A stretch of 64,000 bases of DNA from Ostreococcus lucimarinus. Taxonomy: Eukaryota. The stretch is from assembly GCA_000092065.1 (NCBI GenBank), contig CP000589.1; one strand, 5' to 3'. Positions 32,570-59,526 of this stretch are shown here, piece by piece; position 1 is the first letter of the stretch; every line of letters starts with the position of its first letter. The position numbers were made by a program, and so were the translations under genes. The notes below the pieces were generated by a model that worked only from the letters and a program-made list of their open reading frames with translations, was not told the DNA's origin and did no database searches.

Positions 32570-33679
32570 ATGACGACGTCGGTGACGTCGGCGACGCGAT
32601 GCGCGCGCGCGGGCGACGCGATGCGCGCGCGAAGATCGCACCGCGCCGGAACGTCGTCCCGGTCGTCGACGCCGACGCGACGCGTCGTCGCGGCGCGGCG
32701 CGGGCGTCGACCGGCGCTCGCGTCCGACGACGCGACGACGACGACGGCGGGGACGGGGACGGGGACGGGGACGACGCGCGCGGCGACGACGGCGCCGCTG
32801 GCGCACGAGCTGGTGCAGGGCGCGCTGGTGCGTTGGAGCGTGGAAAAACCGGACGGACCGCACCCGCCGACGTGCGTGCTGGTGCACGGAATCCTGGGCT
32901 CGCGAAGAAACTTGCAATCGCTCGCGAAGCGCCTGGCTGAAAAGTTTCCGTCGTGGCAGTTTTTGTTGGTGGATTTGAGAAATCACGGGGAGTCGAACAC
33001 GGCGCTGGAGAAGAAACCAGAGGGCGCGAACACGGTGCAAAACGCGGCGAGAGACGTGCTGGGGGTGTTGAATCATTTAAAGATATATCCGTACACGCTG
33101 ATCGGGCACTCGTTCGGGGGGAAGGTGGCGATGTCGATGGTGCACCAGTTTGGACGCGCGTTGCCGCGGCCGGTGCAGGTGTGGGTGCTGGACACGGTGC
33201 CGGGAGACGTGTGGTGCGATGACGTCGGAGATCACCCGAGAGATACGATTCGGTTCTGTACCACGCTCGATAGACCGATCGAAAGTCGCAGATCGCTCGT
33301 GGAGTCGCTCACGGGGGCTGGATTCACCGTGGAAGGCGCGCAGTGGATGACGACGAATTTACGAGCGGATGGGAACGGGAAATTCGATTGGACGTTTGAT
33401 TTGGATGGCATCGCGGAGATGTACGCGTCGTACGAAGCGTGCGATTTGTGGCCGATGGTTGAGACGCAACCCGCGGGATTGAGCTTAGATTTCGTACAAG
33501 CAGAACGGTCGGCGTTCGTGTGGACGCCCGAGGACGTGGCGCGCATTCGCGGCACCGGCGCCAACGTGCACTTGCTGCGCAACTCCGCGCACTGGGTGCA
33601 CATCGATAACCCGAACGGGTTGCTAGACATTCTGGCCCCTTCTTTCGAGAACATGGAGCGCAACTCGAAGGCGCGATGA
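32570..33679 (+). CDS. Alpha/beta-hydrolase fold protein (ABHD11-like) with N-terminal presequence
   Basis: Oxyanion-hole motif HGILGS, nucleophile elbow GHSFGG, and C-terminal NSAHWVHID (catalytic His). Start chosen at the ATG at 32570, after the divergent S49 peptidase gene. Confidence 0.6.
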   Translation: MTTSVTSATRCARAGDAMRARRSHRAGTSSRSSTPTRRVVAARRGRRPALASDDATTTTAGTGTGTGTTRAATTAPLAHELVQGALVRWSVEKPDGPHPPTCVLVHGILGSRRNLQSLAKRLAEKFPSWQFLLVDLRNHGESNTALEKKPEGANTVQNAARDVLGVLNHLKIYPYTLIGHSFGGKVAMSMVHQFGRALPRPVQVWVLDTVPGDVWCDDVGDHPRDTIRFCTTLDRPIESRRSLVESLTGAGFTVEGAQWMTTNLRADGNGKFDWTFDLDGIAEMYASYEACDLWPMVETQPAGLSLDFVQAERSAFVWTPEDVARIRGTGANVHLLRNSAHWVHIDNPNGLLDILAPSFENMERNSKAR

Positions 33680-41685: not shown

Positions 41686-43870
41686 GATGACGACGGCGAG
41701 CGATGCGCCGGGAACGCCGATGCGCGCCGTCGCGGCGTCGACGCCCGTCGACGCCGACGCGACGTCGCCGGGCGTCGTGCGAGAGACGCCGACGAAGACG
41801 ACGCGGGCGCGCGTCGCGTCGGCGCACGACGCGGAGGCGCGAGACGCGCTGGTGTTCGCGACGGAGACGGAGTGCGAGCGGTACGCGGAAGCGACGAACG
41901 GGACGGCGCGCGCGGCGAGCGTGACGTGCGATCCGTTCGTGTCGGGGAAGCTGCGCGAGCATCAACGCGCGGGGGCGAGGTGGATGTATCGAGCGCTGCA
42001 CGGGATCGGAGAAGACGCGGCGAGCGAGGGCGGGACGCGAGGGGTGCTGTTGGCGGATGAGATGGGATTGGGGAAGTCGTTGCAAGTGCTGGCGGTGCTG
42101 TGGACGATGCTGAGGCAAGGACCGTGCGGGAAGCCGACGGCGCGAAGAGCGGTTTTCGTGTGCCCGGCGTCGCTCATCGGAAACTGGGGCGCCGAGTTCA
42201 CGAAGTGGTTGGGAGGCGTGCGCGTGCAGGCGTCGTTGGCGGAAGGGAACGCCGAAGCCGTGGATGCGGCGTGCGATCGATGGTGCGCAGAACCGGCGAA
42301 GGGATCGAAGAGTTCGTTCGATCGGTGGCCGGTGCTCGTGATGTCGTACGAGACGGCGAGGCGCCTGGCGCCGCGCGTGCGGGCGATGAAGCCCGAGCTC
42401 ATGGTGTGCGACGAGGCGCACAGATTGCGCAACGCCATGGGCTCGCAAACCATGACCGCTCTGCGAGAAATCAACGCGCCCATGCGAGTGCTGCTCACGG
42501 GGACGCCGATTCAGAATAATTTGAACGAGTACGCGGCGGTTTTAGACTTTGCGCAACCGGGTATCCTCGGGCCGCTGGAGGATTTTCAGCGCGATTTCAC
42601 GCAACCTATTCAGAGGCAATACGAGCGAGGCGCGAGCAAGGAACAAATCGCACAAGGTCGCAAGGTTGCGGACGAACTCAATCGACGAACGAAAGGGAAG
42701 ATTTTGAGTCGGAAATCTTCGACGAATGCGGCGTACTTGCCAAAAAAGACTGAGCTCGTGGTGCTCTGTCGCTTGACGTCCGCGCAGAGGCAAGCTTATG
42801 AGGCTGGGGCAAAATTAGTGGAGTCGTGGACGAGTAGCGATACGAGTGCGTCCTCTGGCGCGGCGGCGCTTTGTGCGATTGGAATCTTGCGACAGACAGC
42901 GAATGAGGTTGATCAAATCCTCGCGAGTGCCGATTCGCATTCGCAGACTATGACGGATGCGGAAAAGGAGCTCGATGATGAGATGGAGATGGACGCCATC
43001 GCGCGCGCAGGGACGTCCGGAAAGTCAGTGGATGATTTAAAAGCTGCTATGGCCAAAGCTTTGCCTCGAGATTACGCGGGAGGAATCGATGGCTCGGGGA
43101 AATTTACCATTTTGCGGCGCATGCTCGAGGCGCTCAAAGAGCGCGGTGACCCAACAGAGCGCGTCGTTGTCGTCTCCGGTTACTCTGCATCACTCGCGAC
43201 TGCGGAAGATATCTGCAAAAAATTAAACGTAACCACTTCGCGTCTCGATGGCACAGTGGCAGTCGATTTGCGTACATCCATCGTCAAGAATTTCAACTCT
43301 GGTCAAGGCGGTCAAGTCATGCTGCTCTCCGTCGTCGCTGGCGGCGCCGGGTTGAATCTTGTCGGTGCCAATCGGTTGATTCTCATGGACGTATCTTGGA
43401 ATCCTGCGCACGATCGACAAGCGATGGGCCGAATTTGGCGCGATGGTCAGACGAAACCGGTCACAATTTATCGCCTTGTCTCTGCTGGCACTGTAGAGCA
43501 AAAAGTTTTCGAGCGACAGCTCGGCAAAGAAGTGCTAAAGAATACGGTCGAGAGCGGGTACACGGGTTATGAAGGCGATGGATTCACCACGAAAGACTCG
43601 CTCGTGGGTATCGTAAAATTCACAGGTGATGAATTGAGCGAAATCGTCGATTGGGGCCGCCCTTTGGACGTCCACGATGCGTGTCCATTGCTCGGCGCGG
43701 CACGTTCACACGGTGCGGCGTTTCAAGTCATCGACGTCGACGATGGTACCGCCGCCGACGAAGCGCGAGCGAACATTCCGAAAAAGGAACCAATCGAAGT
43801 TCGCGCTAAAAAGTTGGCCCCAAAGCGCACTGCTTTCGAAGATTTATTTTCCGCAAAACGCGCGAGGTAG
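41686..43870 (+). CDS. SNF2-family DNA-dependent ATPase, Rad54-like
   Basis: LREHQRAGARWMY (Rad54 motif I context), GLGKSLQ, DEAH box VCDEAHRLRN, LLTGTPIQNNLNEY, helicase-C region (LDGTVAVDLRTSIVKNFNS, LLSVVAGGAGLNLVGANRLILMDVSWNPAHDRQAMGRIWRDGQTKPVTIYRL). The ORF begins at 40334, but its first 450 codons are antisense to the preceding gene, so the ATG at 41686 was taken as the start. Confidence 0.8.
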
Positions 43871-56721: not shown

Positions 56722-57447
56722 ATGCTCGGTGGTGCCCGCGCGTTCGCCCGCTCTCCCGCTCGCGTCGTCGCTCTCACCGCGTCCATCGCCGCGTGCGCCA
56801 CCGTCACCGCGCCTCGCGGTTCGATGACGGCCGCGCGCGCGACGTATTCGGACAAACACACGCGCGTGAGCGCGTCGTTCGGTGACGTCAAGGACATTCG
56901 TTTGAGGCCGCTGCCGAAGCGCGACGACGAAGAATCGTTCGCGGCGTCGGGTTTGTGGAGAGAAAAACCGTGCGTCATCGTGGTGATGCGCAGGCCGGGA
57001 TGAGTGCTGTGCCGTGGGGAAGCCGTGAAGGTGTACGAGAGGAAGCGCGAGTTCGACGCGCTCGGGTGCACGCTGGCGTGCGTCCTCAAGGAAGGCTTAC
57101 CCGCGGAGGTGGAGGAGTTTAAGCGAGACTTTTGGCCGGAACACTTATACTTGGACGAAGATAAGGCGTTCTTTAAGGCTGTGGGGGGTGGGAAACTGAA
57201 GAAAGGGTCGCTGAGTGCGTTTTTGAATCCGTTTTCTCGCATTTGGAAACACGCGGGCGACGCGAAGAAAGCCGGCGTCAAGGAACACAATCTGAACGGC
57301 GAAGGGCTGATCATGGGTGGGATGTTCGTGATGAAGCCCGGTTCACAAGGCGTGCAGTATCAGTTTCAAGAGCGAAATTTCGGCGATCACGCGCCCATCG
57401 AAGACGTGTTGGCGGCGGCCAAGGCGGCGTCTGAGGCGTCGAAGTAA
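56722..57447 (+). CDS. SELENOU: Selenoprotein U (SelU; PRXL2/FAM213 peroxiredoxin-like family) with in-frame TGA (Sec) at 57001-57003
   Basis: ORFs 56596..57003 and 57004..57447 are in the same frame, separated only by TGA. Joined, they read ...LWREKPCVIVVMRRPG-[TGA]-VLCRGEAVKVYE...NLNGEGLIMGGMFVMKPGSQGVQYQFQERNFGDHAPIEDVLAAAK. This aligns with human PRXL2A (...LWEKNGAVIMAVRRPGCFLCREEA......GNLEGEGFILGGVFVVGSGKQGILLEHREKEFGDKVNLLSVLEAAK), with the TGA at the first Cys of the CxxC redox motif. The ATG at 56722 precedes a presequence-like N-terminus. Confidence 0.85.
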
Positions 57448-57657: not shown

Positions 57658-58575
57658 TCACTTGTCTTTTGCCTTCTCCTTGTCATCCGACGACGCGGCT
57701 TTTTGTGTCGTCTGCACGCGCTCTTCCTCCGCCTTTTCGTCCGCTTCCGAAGGCTTGTACACGATGACGGGCTTTTTGCATCGATGCAAACAATAGTTGC
57801 ACACGCTCCCGATGAAAAATTCACGAATGCGGCCTTTTGACGATGAAGCGAGAACGACGGCGACGGCGTCGTCGATGAGCGTGGACTTTTCCACCATGAT
57901 CTCTCCCACGGATGACACATTCGTGTCGTACGGGACGATGTCGATTTTGTACGCGATCGAGGCTTCGTCGAGCAGTGGGACGACGTGTTCGTCCATCCAT
58001 CTGAGCGCTTCGTTTCGCCACGCCGTTTCCTGCGCATCAAATACAACAGTACGTCAATCCTCGGTTCTCATCTCGTCCGATCGACGTAGATGCGAAACAA
58101 CCTGCTCTCGCGCGTGGAACACTTCTCGGCGAAGCATCGGCGATGACTGATAGAGGTATCGCATTGCGGCTCTGCGGACGAACGAACGAACGAAAAAACG
58201 ATGATTAATCACTCGCCTGTTCTTCATCTGGCACGGTGACTGGGTAGAAATCGCCCATCAACGCGCTCACGCTGTCCGAAGCCGGAAAAGTTCTGCGCCA
58301 CACGTCAACGAAACGAACGACGCGAGCGCGAGCGCGCGCGCGACGCCTCGAAACGAAACGCACCCCGGAATCACGTGCACCACCCGGCACTCGTCTCGTT
58401 CGCTCGTCGCGAGATTTTCGATGAACCATCGAACCATTGGAACCGTGGTCTTCGCGCAGTCGACGCCCAAGATCCAAATCTTCCGCGCGCGTCCCGCTCG
58501 ACACGCGCACGCCGCGCCGCACGAGCAATTTTCATCGCAGTCCCCTCCGCACGCGCACGTCGCGCAGTCGCACAT
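57658..58575 (-). CDS. Universal stress protein (UspA) family gene, at least two exons, with metallothionein-like Cys-rich N-terminus
   Basis: 5' exon (ATG at 58575): MCDCATCACGGDCDENCSCGAACACRAGRARKIWILGVDCAKTTVPMVRWFIENLATSERDECRVVHVIPG, where the Usp N-terminal beta-strand/ATP-loop context follows a Cys-rich leader. 3' exon (ends 57658): EALRWMDEHVVPLLDEASIAYKIDIVPYDTNVSSVGEIMVEKSTLIDDAVAVVLASSSKGRIREFFIGSVCNYCLHRCKKPVIVYKP, the Usp C-terminal half with the G-x2-G-x9-G-S motif. Intron boundaries between 57997 and 58340 are not resolved. Confidence 0.55.
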
Positions 58576-58815
58576 CGGCGTCGGTGGCGTCGTCGTCTTC
58601 GTCGTCTTCGTCGTCTTCGTTTCGCTCGTCTTCGCGTCGCGCGTCGTTTCGCTCGCGTCCTCGCGCGCGCCGTTTTACCGGTCGCCGCGCCGTCCCTCGA
58701 CTTTCGCCGTTTTCGCCGTTTCGCGTCGCGGCGCCCGAGACGCGGCGCGCGCGCCCGCGCGCGCCAGGCGGCGACGCGTCCGCGCGCGACGACGACGACG
58801 GCGACGGCGACGGCG

Positions 58816-59526
58816 ATGGCGGACGACGCCGGCGACGCCGTCGCGAACCCCGCGAGCGCGATGCGCGCGCTCGGCGTCGACGACGCCGCGCGCGCGCTGT
58901 CGCAGGGCGCCGAAGCGCGCGTCTTCGCGCTCGAATTCTGCGGGCGGGACGCGATTTGTAAGCAGCGATTCGCGAAAAAGTACCGCTTGCCGGCGCTGGA
59001 CGAACGGCTGACGCGAGCGAGATTGGTGGGAGAGGCGAGGGCGATCGTGCGGGCGCGAAAACTGGGCGTGCGAGCGCCGATGGTGCTGCACGTGGACGCG
59101 AACGAGGCGTGCGTGTACATGGAACGCGTGGCGGGCGTGGCGCTGAAGGAGGCGCTGCGGCGAGAGACGTGCACGAGGGAAGACATCGCGAGGTACGGAA
59201 GAGAGATCGGAGAGGCGATAAGTAAATTGCACGACGGCGGTCTCGTGCACGGGGACTTGACGACGAGTAATTTCATGGTGAGAGACGACGACGGCGCCGT
59301 CGTCGTCATCGATTTCGGTTTGAGCTACCCTAGCGCGGTGCCCGAAGACAAGGGCGTGGATTTATACGTTCTCGAGCGCGCCATCAACGCCGCGCACCCA
59401 TCGCAAACCGAGCTGTTCGATGAAATCATAGCGACGTACAAAAAAACGTCAAAGATGTGGTGCGCGACGCTGAATAGATTCGCCGAGGTTCGCGCGAGAG
59501 GACGCAAACGCTCGATGGTGGGTTAA
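58816..59526 (+). CDS. BUD32: KEOPS/EKC complex kinase Bud32 (PRPK/TP53RK)
   Basis: SQGAEARVF..., KQRFAKKYRLPALDERLTRARLVGEARAIVRARKLGVRAP, LHDGGLVHGDLTTSNFMV, VVIDFGLSYPSAVPEDKGVDLYVLERA, and C-terminus EVRARGRKRSMVG. All are near-identical to human PRPK segments recalled from memory. Confidence 0.85.
   Translation: MADDAGDAVANPASAMRALGVDDAARALSQGAEARVFALEFCGRDAICKQRFAKKYRLPALDERLTRARLVGEARAIVRARKLGVRAPMVLHVDANEACVYMERVAGVALKEALRRETCTREDIARYGREIGEAISKLHDGGLVHGDLTTSNFMVRDDDGAVVVIDFGLSYPSAVPEDKGVDLYVLERAINAAHPSQTELFDEIIATYKKTSKMWCATLNRFAEVRARGRKRSMVG

What the first reader, a model, noticed from the sequence alone, without database searches (positions are those of the whole stretch)
58267..58575. 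Universal stress protein with a metallothionein-like Cys-rich N-terminal extension
The 5' exon begins MCDCATCACGGDCDENCSCGAACAC. That is 10 Cys in 25 residues, with CxC/CxxC spacing like metallothioneins. It continues directly into the Usp-domain N-terminal strand (KIWILGVDCAKTT...VVHVIPG). A metal-binding leader fused to a Usp/ETFP adenine-nucleotide-binding domain is not an architecture I recognise. It could link metal stress sensing to the Usp module.
Basis: seen in the sequence. Interest (0 to 1): 0.5.

Follow-up and report, generated by a model that had tools for sequence, protein, structure and literature searches.

The report
Cysteine-rich leader on an algal stress protein
A small stress-response protein of the marine green alga Ostreococcus lucimarinus starts with a conserved 25-residue stretch holding nine cysteines, which looks like a metal-binding metallothionein; the reference annotation misses it, and nobody has yet tested whether it binds metal.

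Summary
On the minus strand, an ATG at 58575 opens MCDCATCACGGDCDENCSCGAACAC. That is 9 Cys in 25 residues, not 10. A short basic linker then leads into strand beta-1 of a complete Usp domain.

The window is Ostreococcus lucimarinus CCE9901. Its reference protein (XP_001419735.1, 112 aa) covers only part of the last exon. The real gene has three exons and encodes 219 aa.

The leader recurs in at least four further syntenic Ostreococcus lineages with the spacing C-x-C-x2-C-x-C-x3-C-x3-C-x-C-x3-C-x-C. All nine Cys codons are invariant apart from TGC/TGT changes, while the spacer residues evolve almost neutrally. No other ATG lies upstream of beta-1 in O. lucimarinus.

The leader is absent from O. 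tauri, from one other Ostreococcus lineage, and from Micromonas and other Mamiellales. It is therefore genus-restricted and dispensable.

It matches no curated metallothionein family. The whole protein is only 6.4% Cys. No transcript or metal-binding evidence could be obtained.

Best reading: a lineage-specific metallothionein-like thiolate-cluster module fused to an ordinary Usp. This is a new variant of a known kind and of moderate interest.

Side finding: a conserved, apparently mutually exclusive alternative exon sits inside intron 2.

The parts
58364..58575 (-). Exon 1 (212 nt). It holds the start codon, the Cys9 leader, the basic linker, and Usp beta1-alpha1-beta2 up to VVHVIPG. It ends in phase 2 at the donor GG|GTGCGT.
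   Evidence: The same exon boundary is found in 5 other Ostreococcus lineages.
58501..58572 (-). Cys9 block, codons 2-25 (CDCATCACGGDCDENCSCGAACAC). The spacing is C-x-C-x2-C-x-C-x3-C-x3-C-x-C-x3-C-x-C.
   Evidence: All nine Cys are invariant in 5 lineages, with only TGC/TGT synonymous changes. The spacer residues evolve with omega about 0.7-0.8.
58480..58500 (-). Basic, flexible linker RAGRARK between the Cys block and Usp strand beta-1 (IWILGVD).
   Evidence: Orthologues have linkers of different length and sequence here (QSGQSGRARR, KRPSRSGTTTRR, poly-Thr).
58293..58363 (-). Intron 1 (71 nt, GT-AG, phase 2).
58217..58292 (-). Exon 2 (76 nt), encoding (G)TFPASDSVSALMGDFYPVTVPDEEQ. This is the exon homologous to Micromonas ...YYAFDEFVPEVPDPEQ.
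58030..58216 (-). Intron 2 (187 nt). It has a GC-AG donor (CAG|GCGAGT) in O. lucimarinus and L013, and GT donors in the other lineages.
58102..58171 (-). Candidate alternative exon '2b' (70 nt) inside intron 2, encoding (G)AAMRYLYQSSPMLRREVFHAREQ. It has the same phase class (2 to 0) as exon 2, so it is frame-compatible only as a mutually exclusive exon.
   Evidence: pS 0.4-1.0 against pN 0.07-0.33. One search shows it fused directly to exon 3 in the genomic DNA of lineage L020.
57658..58029 (-). Exon 3 (372 nt including the TGA stop). It encodes Usp alpha2 to beta5, with A-S-S-S-x9-G-S in place of G-x2-G-x9-G-S, a CNYCLHRC motif and an acidic/basic tail. The reference protein XP_001419735.1 (112 aa) starts at the internal Met (MDEHVV...).
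58576..58815 (.). 240-bp divergent intergenic region shared with the Bud32-type kinase gene (ATG at 58816, plus strand). It must contain the Usp promoter and 5' UTR. The frame upstream of the ATG is open to 58674 but holds no ATG, GTG or TTG. The stretch 58587..58675 is (TCGTCGTCT)n-like repeat.

Best explanation
The locus encodes a 219-aa, three-exon, single-domain universal stress protein of Ostreococcus lucimarinus.

Shown here:
- The N-terminus carries a translated 25-residue module with nine cysteines, joined by a short basic linker to strand beta-1.
- The module is conserved in several Ostreococcus lineages, and selection acts on the cysteines rather than on the spacers.

Inferred:
- The nine thiolates fold around metal ions as a metallothionein-type cluster. 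Nine Cys is the number used by the M(II)3Cys9 beta-domain of vertebrate metallothionein and by Zn3Cys9 CXC/pre-SET domains. Cu(I) binding is equally possible.
- The Usp would then carry a small metal-buffering or metal- and redox-responsive head.
- Metal loading, or oxidative metal release, most plausibly changes the oligomeric state or partner binding of the Usp domain. Plant USPs are known to switch oligomeric state and chaperone activity with redox state.

The module is an accessory. It arose in the Ostreococcus ancestor and was later lost at least once, probably twice (O. tauri and lineage L018).
For: Gene model and Usp identity:
- The three-exon structure is conserved in 6 lineages.
- Pfam Usp covers residues 36-188.
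- 1MJH matches at E=2e-7 over profile positions 34-190.
- The AF2 Usp core has pLDDT 84-94, and the top 28 Foldseek hits are USP structures.

Translation of the leader:
- In O. lucimarinus, L009, L011 and L015 the only in-frame ATGs upstream of beta-1 lie 5' of the Cys block, and the next Met is inside helix alpha-1.
- All indels in the leader are in frame: a 5-codon gap in L001, a 4-codon deletion in P0140, and an (ACG)3-11 tract.

Selection:
- The nine Cys codons show 0 nonsynonymous differences over 24 nonsynonymous sites in every pair of lineages, while synonymous TGC/TGT changes do occur.
- In the same block the non-Cys codons have omega of about 0.7-0.8, and about 2 in the closest pair.
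- The Usp domain has omega 0.08-0.3 with dS above 1.

Synteny: all loci share the order Gaa1, Tab2, Bud32, USP, AhpC-TSA_2, cyclophilin, prefoldin.

Metallothionein-like composition:
- 9 Cys in 25 residues, CxC motifs, and no aromatic residues or His in residues 1-31.
- This fits the compositional definition quoted in PMC7216689.
- AF2 gives no confident apo-structure for the leader (pLDDT 53-62), as expected for a fold that depends on metal.

Redox link: plant USPs are redox-regulated and share two conserved Cys (PMC6560075). This protein keeps CNYCLHRC at the equivalent C-terminal position.
Against: - No metal-binding data exist.
- No curated metallothionein family in Pfam is hit at E<=10, and no solved metallothionein chain is hit.
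- The Cys number is not fixed: 7 in the L001 lineage, 8 in variant P0140, and one C-to-S variant in P0143.
- O. tauri and lineage L018 do without the leader, so any function is dispensable.
- No spliced transcript or 5'-end evidence was found.
- The canonical ATP motif of the Usp domain is degenerate (A-S-S-S-x9-G-S), so what the Usp domain itself does is unclear.
Confidence: 0.55

Rival explanations
1. The leader is a thiol redox switch rather than a metal store. Its cysteines, with or without bound Zn as in Hsp33, would be oxidised under stress and drive disulfide-linked oligomerisation or activation of the Usp. This would parallel the H2O2/DTT-dependent oligomer-to-monomer switching of Arabidopsis AtUSP. 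This rival overlaps with the best explanation if Zn is the leaving group.
For: Plant USPs are redox-regulated thioredoxin targets with conserved Cys (PMC6560075). The Usp domain here keeps CNYCLHRC. A peroxiredoxin-like AhpC-TSA_2 gene is the conserved convergent neighbour in both Ostreococcus and Micromonas. Strict conservation of the cysteines fits this reading as well.
Against: A redox switch rarely needs nine cysteines in regular CxC spacing. Gene adjacency carries little weight in a eukaryote. Nothing was tested experimentally.
Confidence: 0.2
2. The leader is an S-acylation (palmitoylation) cluster. Together with the following basic linker, it would anchor the Usp to a membrane, as N-terminal Cys-plus-polybasic motifs do in other proteins.
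For: The module is an N-terminal Cys cluster followed directly by a basic stretch: RAGRARK, KRRLQSG or GRARR.
Against: Acidic residues are interspersed among the cysteines and no hydrophobic residues flank them. Simple membrane anchoring would not require all nine cysteines and their exact spacing to be conserved.
Confidence: 0.1
3. The leader is a functionally neutral low-complexity extension produced by GC-rich (TGCGCG-like) sequence at the 5' end. It would be tolerated rather than selected, and in decay.
For: It has been lost in O. tauri and L018. It is shortened in L001 and P0140. The spacers evolve fast. A weak 9-nt periodicity is present.
Against: Nine of nine Cys are invariant across lineages whose synonymous sites are saturated, while 12 of 15 neighbouring positions vary. 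There are 0 nonsynonymous changes where roughly 7-12 per pair would be expected at the spacer rate. TRF finds no real array in the block.
Confidence: 0.1
4. The Cys codons are not translated. Transcription or translation would start downstream, and the ORF would be a 5' UTR artefact.
For: No transcript evidence was obtained. The reference annotation omits the region. Some variants of the L001 lineage have an ATG (MPTR) just before beta-1.
Against: In O. lucimarinus the next in-frame ATG is Met47, inside helix alpha-1. A downstream start would therefore delete strand beta-1 of the Usp fold. The codon-level conservation and the exclusively in-frame indels argue for translation.
Confidence: 0.05

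Closest known systems
Single-domain universal stress proteins of the MJ0577 / plant At3g01520 type (Pfam PF00582)
   Same: It has a full Usp alpha/beta domain: PF00582 positions 7-141, a sequence match to 1MJH, and a fold match to many USP structures. The C-terminal G-S and Cys/His-containing segment resembles plant USPs. Orthologues in Micromonas and other Mamiellales are plain Usp proteins.
   Different: It carries a 25-residue Cys9 N-terminal module that was not found on any other Usp in the searches run here. The partner domains listed for plant USPs in PMC6560075 are kinase, U-box, SWIM, HD-Zip, cation exchanger and IKI3, so this one is not among them. The G-x2-G part of the ATP motif is A-S-S-S in O. 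lucimarinus.
Metallothioneins, in particular a 9-Cys M(II)3Cys9 unit such as the vertebrate beta-domain (the comparison of Cys number and cluster type is from general knowledge)
   Same: Cys density is 36%. The motifs are CxC and CxxC. There are no aromatic residues or His. The spacers vary freely while the cysteines are invariant. No stable apo-structure is predicted (definition in PMC7216689).
   Different: It is not a free-standing small protein but the head of a 219-aa protein with 6.4% Cys overall. It has no sequence match to any Pfam metallothionein family or any solved metallothionein chain. Metal binding is untested.
Zn3Cys9 CXC / pre-SET / tesmin-type cluster domains (general knowledge; not tested here)
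   Same: Nine cysteines could form a trinuclear zinc-thiolate cluster within a larger protein.
   Different: The spacing and flanking sequence differ. Those are structural domains of nuclear proteins. No Pfam hit was obtained.
Hsp33-type zinc-thiolate redox switch (general knowledge; functional analogy only)
   Same: A Cys/Zn centre appended to a stress-protective domain acts as an oxidation sensor. Plant AtUSP is a redox-switched chaperone (PMC6560075).
   Different: There is no sequence or fold relationship. Hsp33 uses four Cys at its C-terminus.

Membership tests
Universal stress protein family (PF00582) | Scores above the Pfam gathering threshold over the full domain | tested here: met
   37.9 bits against a cut-off of 24, covering residues 36-188, which is profile positions 7-141 of 141. 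Orthologues score 48-95 bits.
Universal stress protein family (PF00582) | MJ0577-like alpha/beta (Rossmann-like) fold | tested here: met
   The AF2 model has mean pLDDT 72.5, with the core at 84-94. The top 28 Foldseek PDB hits are USP structures at probability 1.00. 1MJH matches by sequence at E=2e-7.
ATP-binding (UspFG / MJ0577) subclass of Usp | G-x2-G-x9-G-(S/T) nucleotide-binding motif | tested here: not met
   O. lucimarinus has A-S-S-S-x9-G-S. L009 and L011 have A-S-S-G-x9-G-S, and Micromonas has A-S-H-G-x9-G-S. The loop has pLDDT below 50. Nucleotide binding is therefore uncertain.
Metallothionein (compositional definition: <=300 aa, 15-35% Cys, <10% aromatic; PMC7216689) | High Cys fraction and few aromatic residues in the protein as a whole | tested here: not met
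   The whole protein has 14 Cys in 219 residues, or 6.4%. Only the leader meets the criterion, with 9 Cys in 25 residues (36%) and no aromatic residues or His in residues 1-31.
Metallothionein | Clustered CxC / CxxC motifs with conserved Cys positions | tested here: met
   The spacing C-x-C-x2-C-x-C-x3-C-x3-C-x-C-x3-C-x-C is invariant in 5 lineages.
Metallothionein | Sequence membership in one of the curated metallothionein families | tested here: not met
   Five leaders gave no Pfam hit at E<=10. No solved metallothionein chain was hit at E<=10. HMMER's composition filters may hide weak matches.
Metallothionein | Binds Zn, Cd or Cu in thiolate clusters | not testable with these tools
   This needs recombinant protein with ICP-MS or ESI-MS.

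The most novel reading that the evidence does not exclude
The leader is a previously undescribed, Ostreococcus-specific family of metallothionein-type metal-thiolate modules. It would act as a built-in metal or redox sensor for a universal stress protein, making this the first metallothionein-Usp fusion. It would sit in a gene that additionally uses two mutually exclusive exons to vary the loop after strand beta-2. Its repeated loss (O. tauri and lineage L018) would reflect ecotype differences in trace-metal or oxidative exposure.
Probability: 0.3. Interest if true: 0.6.

Novelty: new variant of a known kind. Interest (0 to 1): 0.45.

Why it matters
Metallothioneins are poorly catalogued in marine picoeukaryotes. 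PMC7216689 counts a single Ostreococcus entry annotated as a metallothionein in GenBank.

This would be a compact 9-Cys module under clear selection, attached to a stress protein whose biochemical role is itself unclear. It offers a tractable handle for three reasons:
- Closely related species with the module (O. lucimarinus) and without it (O. tauri) are both cultured.
- The module is small enough to synthesise.
- Metal and redox phenotypes are easy to assay.

There is also a practical annotation point. The reference gene models in both O. lucimarinus (112 aa) and O. tauri (71 aa and 243 aa) are wrong, so this architecture cannot be found in protein databases.

Tried and rejected
1. A first four-exon model joined exon 2 to the 'AAMRY...' segment (242 aa). 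I rejected it because the phases are incompatible. Micromonas and other Mamiellales join ...PDPEQ directly to EAEWR.
2. A read-through model that used the whole 102-aa ORF and then a GTGAGC donor (248 aa). I rejected it because the intron 1 boundaries are conserved in 6 lineages.
3. Exact look-ups of spliced full-length models for five lineages found none in the 15-billion-protein collection.
4. Two DNA scans of JGI metagenome contigs for spliced junctions found nothing. One used the exon 1/exon 2 junction. The other used a gapped exon 1 to exon 3 pattern that would catch either isoform. The 5' end and the splicing therefore remain unconfirmed at the RNA level.
5. A third protein search with the full-length alignment found full-length, leaderless orthologues from other Mamiellales but no spliced Ostreococcus product.
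6. Pfam and PDB sequence searches with the leader alone or as a profile gave no metallothionein hit.
AF2 of the alternative isoform did not discriminate between exon 2 and exon 2b: pLDDT was 71.3 against 72.5, and both variable segments had low confidence.
8. I considered an N-terminal Met-Cys N-degron. Only O. lucimarinus starts with MC, and the orthologues start with MTC, MVDC, MEC or MTETVKC, so it is not the conserved feature.
9. I considered whether the O. tauri N-terminus is a frame-shifted leader. None of its three frames is Cys-rich.

Full report
**What is at the coordinates**

The first 25 residues contain nine cysteines, not ten. Across all six reading frames of the 64-kb window this is the only stop-free 25-residue stretch with nine Cys, and the runners-up have seven. 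The sequence is GC-rich eukaryotic DNA. An exact look-up of the downstream ORF identifies the source as Ostreococcus lucimarinus CCE9901. That ORF is the reference protein XP_001419735.1 / A4S2E2, a 112-aa 'predicted protein' starting at an internal Met (MDEHVV...). The published model therefore lacks the leader and the N-terminal half of the Usp domain.

**Gene model**

Homology to the Micromonas pusilla orthologue (P0005) and to syntenic metagenomic Ostreococcus loci gives a three-exon gene:

| Feature | Coordinates (minus strand) | Notes |
|---|---|---|
| Exon 1 | 58575..58364 | |
| Intron 1 | 58363..58293 | GT-AG, phase 2 |
| Exon 2 | 58292..58217 | |
| Intron 2 | 58216..58030 | GC-AG in O. 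lucimarinus and L013; GT-AG elsewhere |
| Exon 3 | 58029..57658 | includes the stop codon |

The exon boundaries are conserved in six lineages. The product is 219 aa. With this model, Pfam Usp covers residues 36-188, which is profile positions 7-141 of 141, at 37.9 bits against a cut-off of 24. The best solved relative by sequence is the ATP-binding protein MJ0577 (1MJH, E=2e-7). An AlphaFold2 model has mean pLDDT 72.5 with the core at 84-94. Its leader scores only 53-62 and its nucleotide loop scores below 50. The model retrieves USP structures as its top 28 Foldseek hits in the PDB. The leader is therefore an N-terminal extension of a complete, otherwise ordinary Usp domain.

**Is the leader real and selected?**

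A profile search with exon 1 recovered exon-1 ORFs from further lineages:

| Protein (locus) | Leader | Cys |
|---|---|---|
| P0008 (L013; flanking proteins 99% identical to the window's) | MCACARCACGGVCDEKCSCGAACAC | 9 |
| P0009 (L009) | MTCACEKCSCGGECDETCACGNACAC | 9 |
| P0010 (L015) | MVDCPCALCSCDGACGEGCACGDACEC | 9 |
| P0011 (L011) | ...TCPCARCSCDGACGDGCACGDACEC | 9 |
| P0007 (L001) | MTETVKCACEKCECENCECGC, followed by poly-Thr | 7 |

Every locus long enough to show it has the same gene order: Gaa1, Tab2, Bud32 kinase, USP, AhpC-TSA_2, cyclophilin, prefoldin. The short L015 contig shows only part of that order. The shared spacing is C-x-C-x2-C-x-C-x3-C-x3-C-x-C-x3-C-x-C.

The codon-level evidence is as follows:
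- The nine Cys codons show only TGC/TGT changes. There are 0 nonsynonymous differences over 24 nonsynonymous sites in every pairwise comparison.
- The 15 spacer codons evolve with omega of about 0.7-0.8. In the closest pair, O. lucimarinus against L013, they show 5 nonsynonymous changes and 1 synonymous change.
- The Usp domain has omega 0.08-0.3 with dS above 1.

All length changes are in frame. These are a 5-codon gap in L001, a 4-codon deletion (DEKC) in variant P0140, and (ACG)3-11 in the L001-lineage linker. One variant, P0143, has a Cys-to-Ser change.

In O. lucimarinus no ATG, GTG or TTG lies in frame upstream of 58575 back to the stop at 58674. The next Met is residue 47, inside helix alpha-1. 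A complete Usp domain therefore cannot be made without translating the leader. Together these results argue that the leader is translated and that its cysteines are maintained by selection.

**Distribution**

An exhaustive HMMER search of 1.84 billion representative proteins with the exon-1 profile found the leader only in the two Ostreococcus clusters. All other hits were plain Usp N-termini.

The leader is absent from:
- The O. tauri orthologue (L016; OUS48995.1 and CEF99000.1). It has the same synteny and introns, but its N-terminus is a 30-residue sequence without Cys.
- Lineage L018.
- Micromonas pusilla.
- Three other full-length Mamiellales orthologues, P0093-P0095.

A Micromonas-rooted neighbour-joining tree of Bud32 plus Usp exon 3 gives (L001,(L009,L011)) and (O. 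tauri,(L018,(O. lucimarinus,L013))). Support is 94% for the second clade and 75-81% for L018 grouping with O. lucimarinus. The simplest history is one gain in the Ostreococcus ancestor followed by two losses, or one loss if the weaker node is wrong. The module is therefore genus-restricted and dispensable.

**What it most likely is**

Shown:
- The protein is a Usp with a conserved Cys9 head.
- The head is 36% Cys, built from CxC/CxxC motifs, and has acidic and small residues as spacers.
- It has no aromatic residues or His.
- Its spacers vary freely, and no stable apo-structure is predicted for it.

These are the compositional hallmarks of metallothioneins as defined in PMC7216689.

Inferred:
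- The nine thiolates form a metal-thiolate cluster. From general knowledge, nine Cys is the number in the M(II)3Cys9 beta-domain of vertebrate metallothionein and in Zn3Cys9 CXC/pre-SET domains. Cu(I) is equally possible.
- Metal loading, or oxidative metal release, modulates the Usp domain.

This last step draws on the known redox-dependent oligomer and chaperone switching of Arabidopsis AtUSP, and on the two conserved Cys of plant USPs (PMC6560075). The protein here keeps CNYCLHRC at the corresponding C-terminal position.

I put 0.55 on a metal-thiolate module and 0.2 on a pure thiol redox switch, noting that the two overlap. I put 0.1 on an S-acylation anchor, because the Cys cluster is followed by a basic linker. 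I put 0.1 on a neutral low-complexity extension and 0.05 on the region not being translated.

**Comparison with known families**

The protein is a member of the Usp family by sequence and fold. The strict ATP motif G-x2-G-x9-G-S reads A-S-S-S-x9-G-S here, so the nucleotide-binding subclass is uncertain.

It is not a metallothionein as a protein, because it is only 6.4% Cys overall. Its leader also belongs to no curated metallothionein family: there was no Pfam hit at E<=10 and no hit to a solved metallothionein chain. The right wording is 'metallothionein-like module' and not 'metallothionein'.

The review of plant USP architectures lists kinase, U-box, SWIM, HD-Zip, cation-exchanger and IKI3 partners, but no Cys-rich metal module. 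Literature searches for Ostreococcus plus metallothionein, Ostreococcus plus universal stress protein, and USP plus metallothionein plus cysteine-rich found no description of this fusion.

**What could not be settled**

No spliced transcript or protein product of any Ostreococcus orthologue was found:
- Exact look-ups of the spliced models returned nothing.
- The full-length profile search found no spliced Ostreococcus product.
- Two junction-pattern scans of metagenome contigs were empty.

The transcription start, the GC-AG splice and translation of the leader therefore rest on comparative evidence only. Metal binding is untested.

**Side finding**

Inside intron 2 lies a 70-nt segment, 58171..58102, that encodes (G)AAMRYLYQSSPMLRREVFHAREQ.
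- It is conserved at the protein level in every Ostreococcus lineage, including O. tauri. pS is 0.4-1.0 against pN 0.07-0.33, and third codon positions vary in 9 of 10 codons.
- In all six lineages its best acceptor needs a phase-2 donor, which is the exon 1 type, and its donor is phase 0, which is the exon 3 type.
- That is the same phase class as the 76-nt exon 2, so including both exons would shift the frame.
- In lineage L020 the segment is fused directly to exon 3 in genomic DNA.

The only frame-compatible reading common to all lineages is a pair of mutually exclusive exons that vary the loop after strand beta-2. AF2 did not favour either isoform. This needs RNA evidence.

**Verdict**

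This is a new variant of a known kind and of moderate interest (0.45).

Noticed in passing
window 58102..58171 (minus strand), inside intron 2 of the Usp gene; also L001, L009, L011, L013, L016, L020: A 70-nt segment encodes (G)AAMRYLYQSSPMLRREVFHAREQ. It is conserved at the protein level in all Ostreococcus lineages and shows coding-type substitution. It has the same splice phases (2 to 0) as exon 2, so it is frame-compatible only as a mutually exclusive alternative exon. In L020 it is fused to exon 3 in genomic DNA.
   Followed up: partly
window 58030..58216 (minus strand): Intron 2 uses a GC-AG splice pair (CAG|GCGAGT) in O. lucimarinus and the near-identical L013. The other Ostreococcus lineages have GT donors at the same position.
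   Followed up: partly
window 57658..58575; L016: The reference gene models are wrong. O. lucimarinus XP_001419735.1 is only the last 112 aa. O. tauri CEF99000.1 is a 71-aa read-through of exon 1. O. tauri OUS48995.1 (243 aa) includes intron-derived residues and both exon 2 and exon 2b pieces.
   Followed up: yes
window 57004..57447 (plus strand) and 57658..58575 (minus strand); L007 3001..4675: The Usp gene and a peroxiredoxin-like AhpC-TSA_2 (PF13911) gene form a convergent, tail-to-tail pair in both Ostreococcus and Micromonas pusilla. The other neighbours differ in Micromonas.
   Followed up: no
L001 3570..3610; L019 1488..1500; proteins P0007, P0137: In the L001 lineage the linker between the leader and the Usp domain is an (ACG)n microsatellite that encodes 3 to 11 threonines in different metagenomic variants. 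Some variants gain an ATG (MPTR) just before beta-1.
   Followed up: partly
proteins P0140 and P0143 (variants of the L013 and L011 lineages): The leader shows microdiversity. P0140 has an in-frame 4-codon deletion that removes DEKC and leaves 8 Cys. P0143 has a Cys-to-Ser change at the third Cys. I could not tell whether these are real polymorphisms or assembly errors.
   Followed up: no
window 58587..58675 and 58787..58837: The divergent intergenic region between the Usp and Bud32 genes is made largely of short tandem repeats: (TCGTCGTCT)n with 15-27-nt periods, then (CGACGG)n running into the start of the Bud32 coding sequence.
   Followed up: no
window 58570..58575 (minus strand): The O. 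lucimarinus protein starts with Met-Cys, the N-terminus that the plant Cys/Arg N-degron pathway recognises. This feature is not conserved in the orthologues, which start with MTC, MVDC, MEC or MTETVKC.
   Followed up: partly
window 42036..42110 (plus strand) and 33126..33200 (plus strand): These are the next most Cys-dense stop-free stretches in the window, with 7 Cys in 25 residues and many Arg and Trp. They look like off-frame translations of GC-rich sequence.
   Followed up: no
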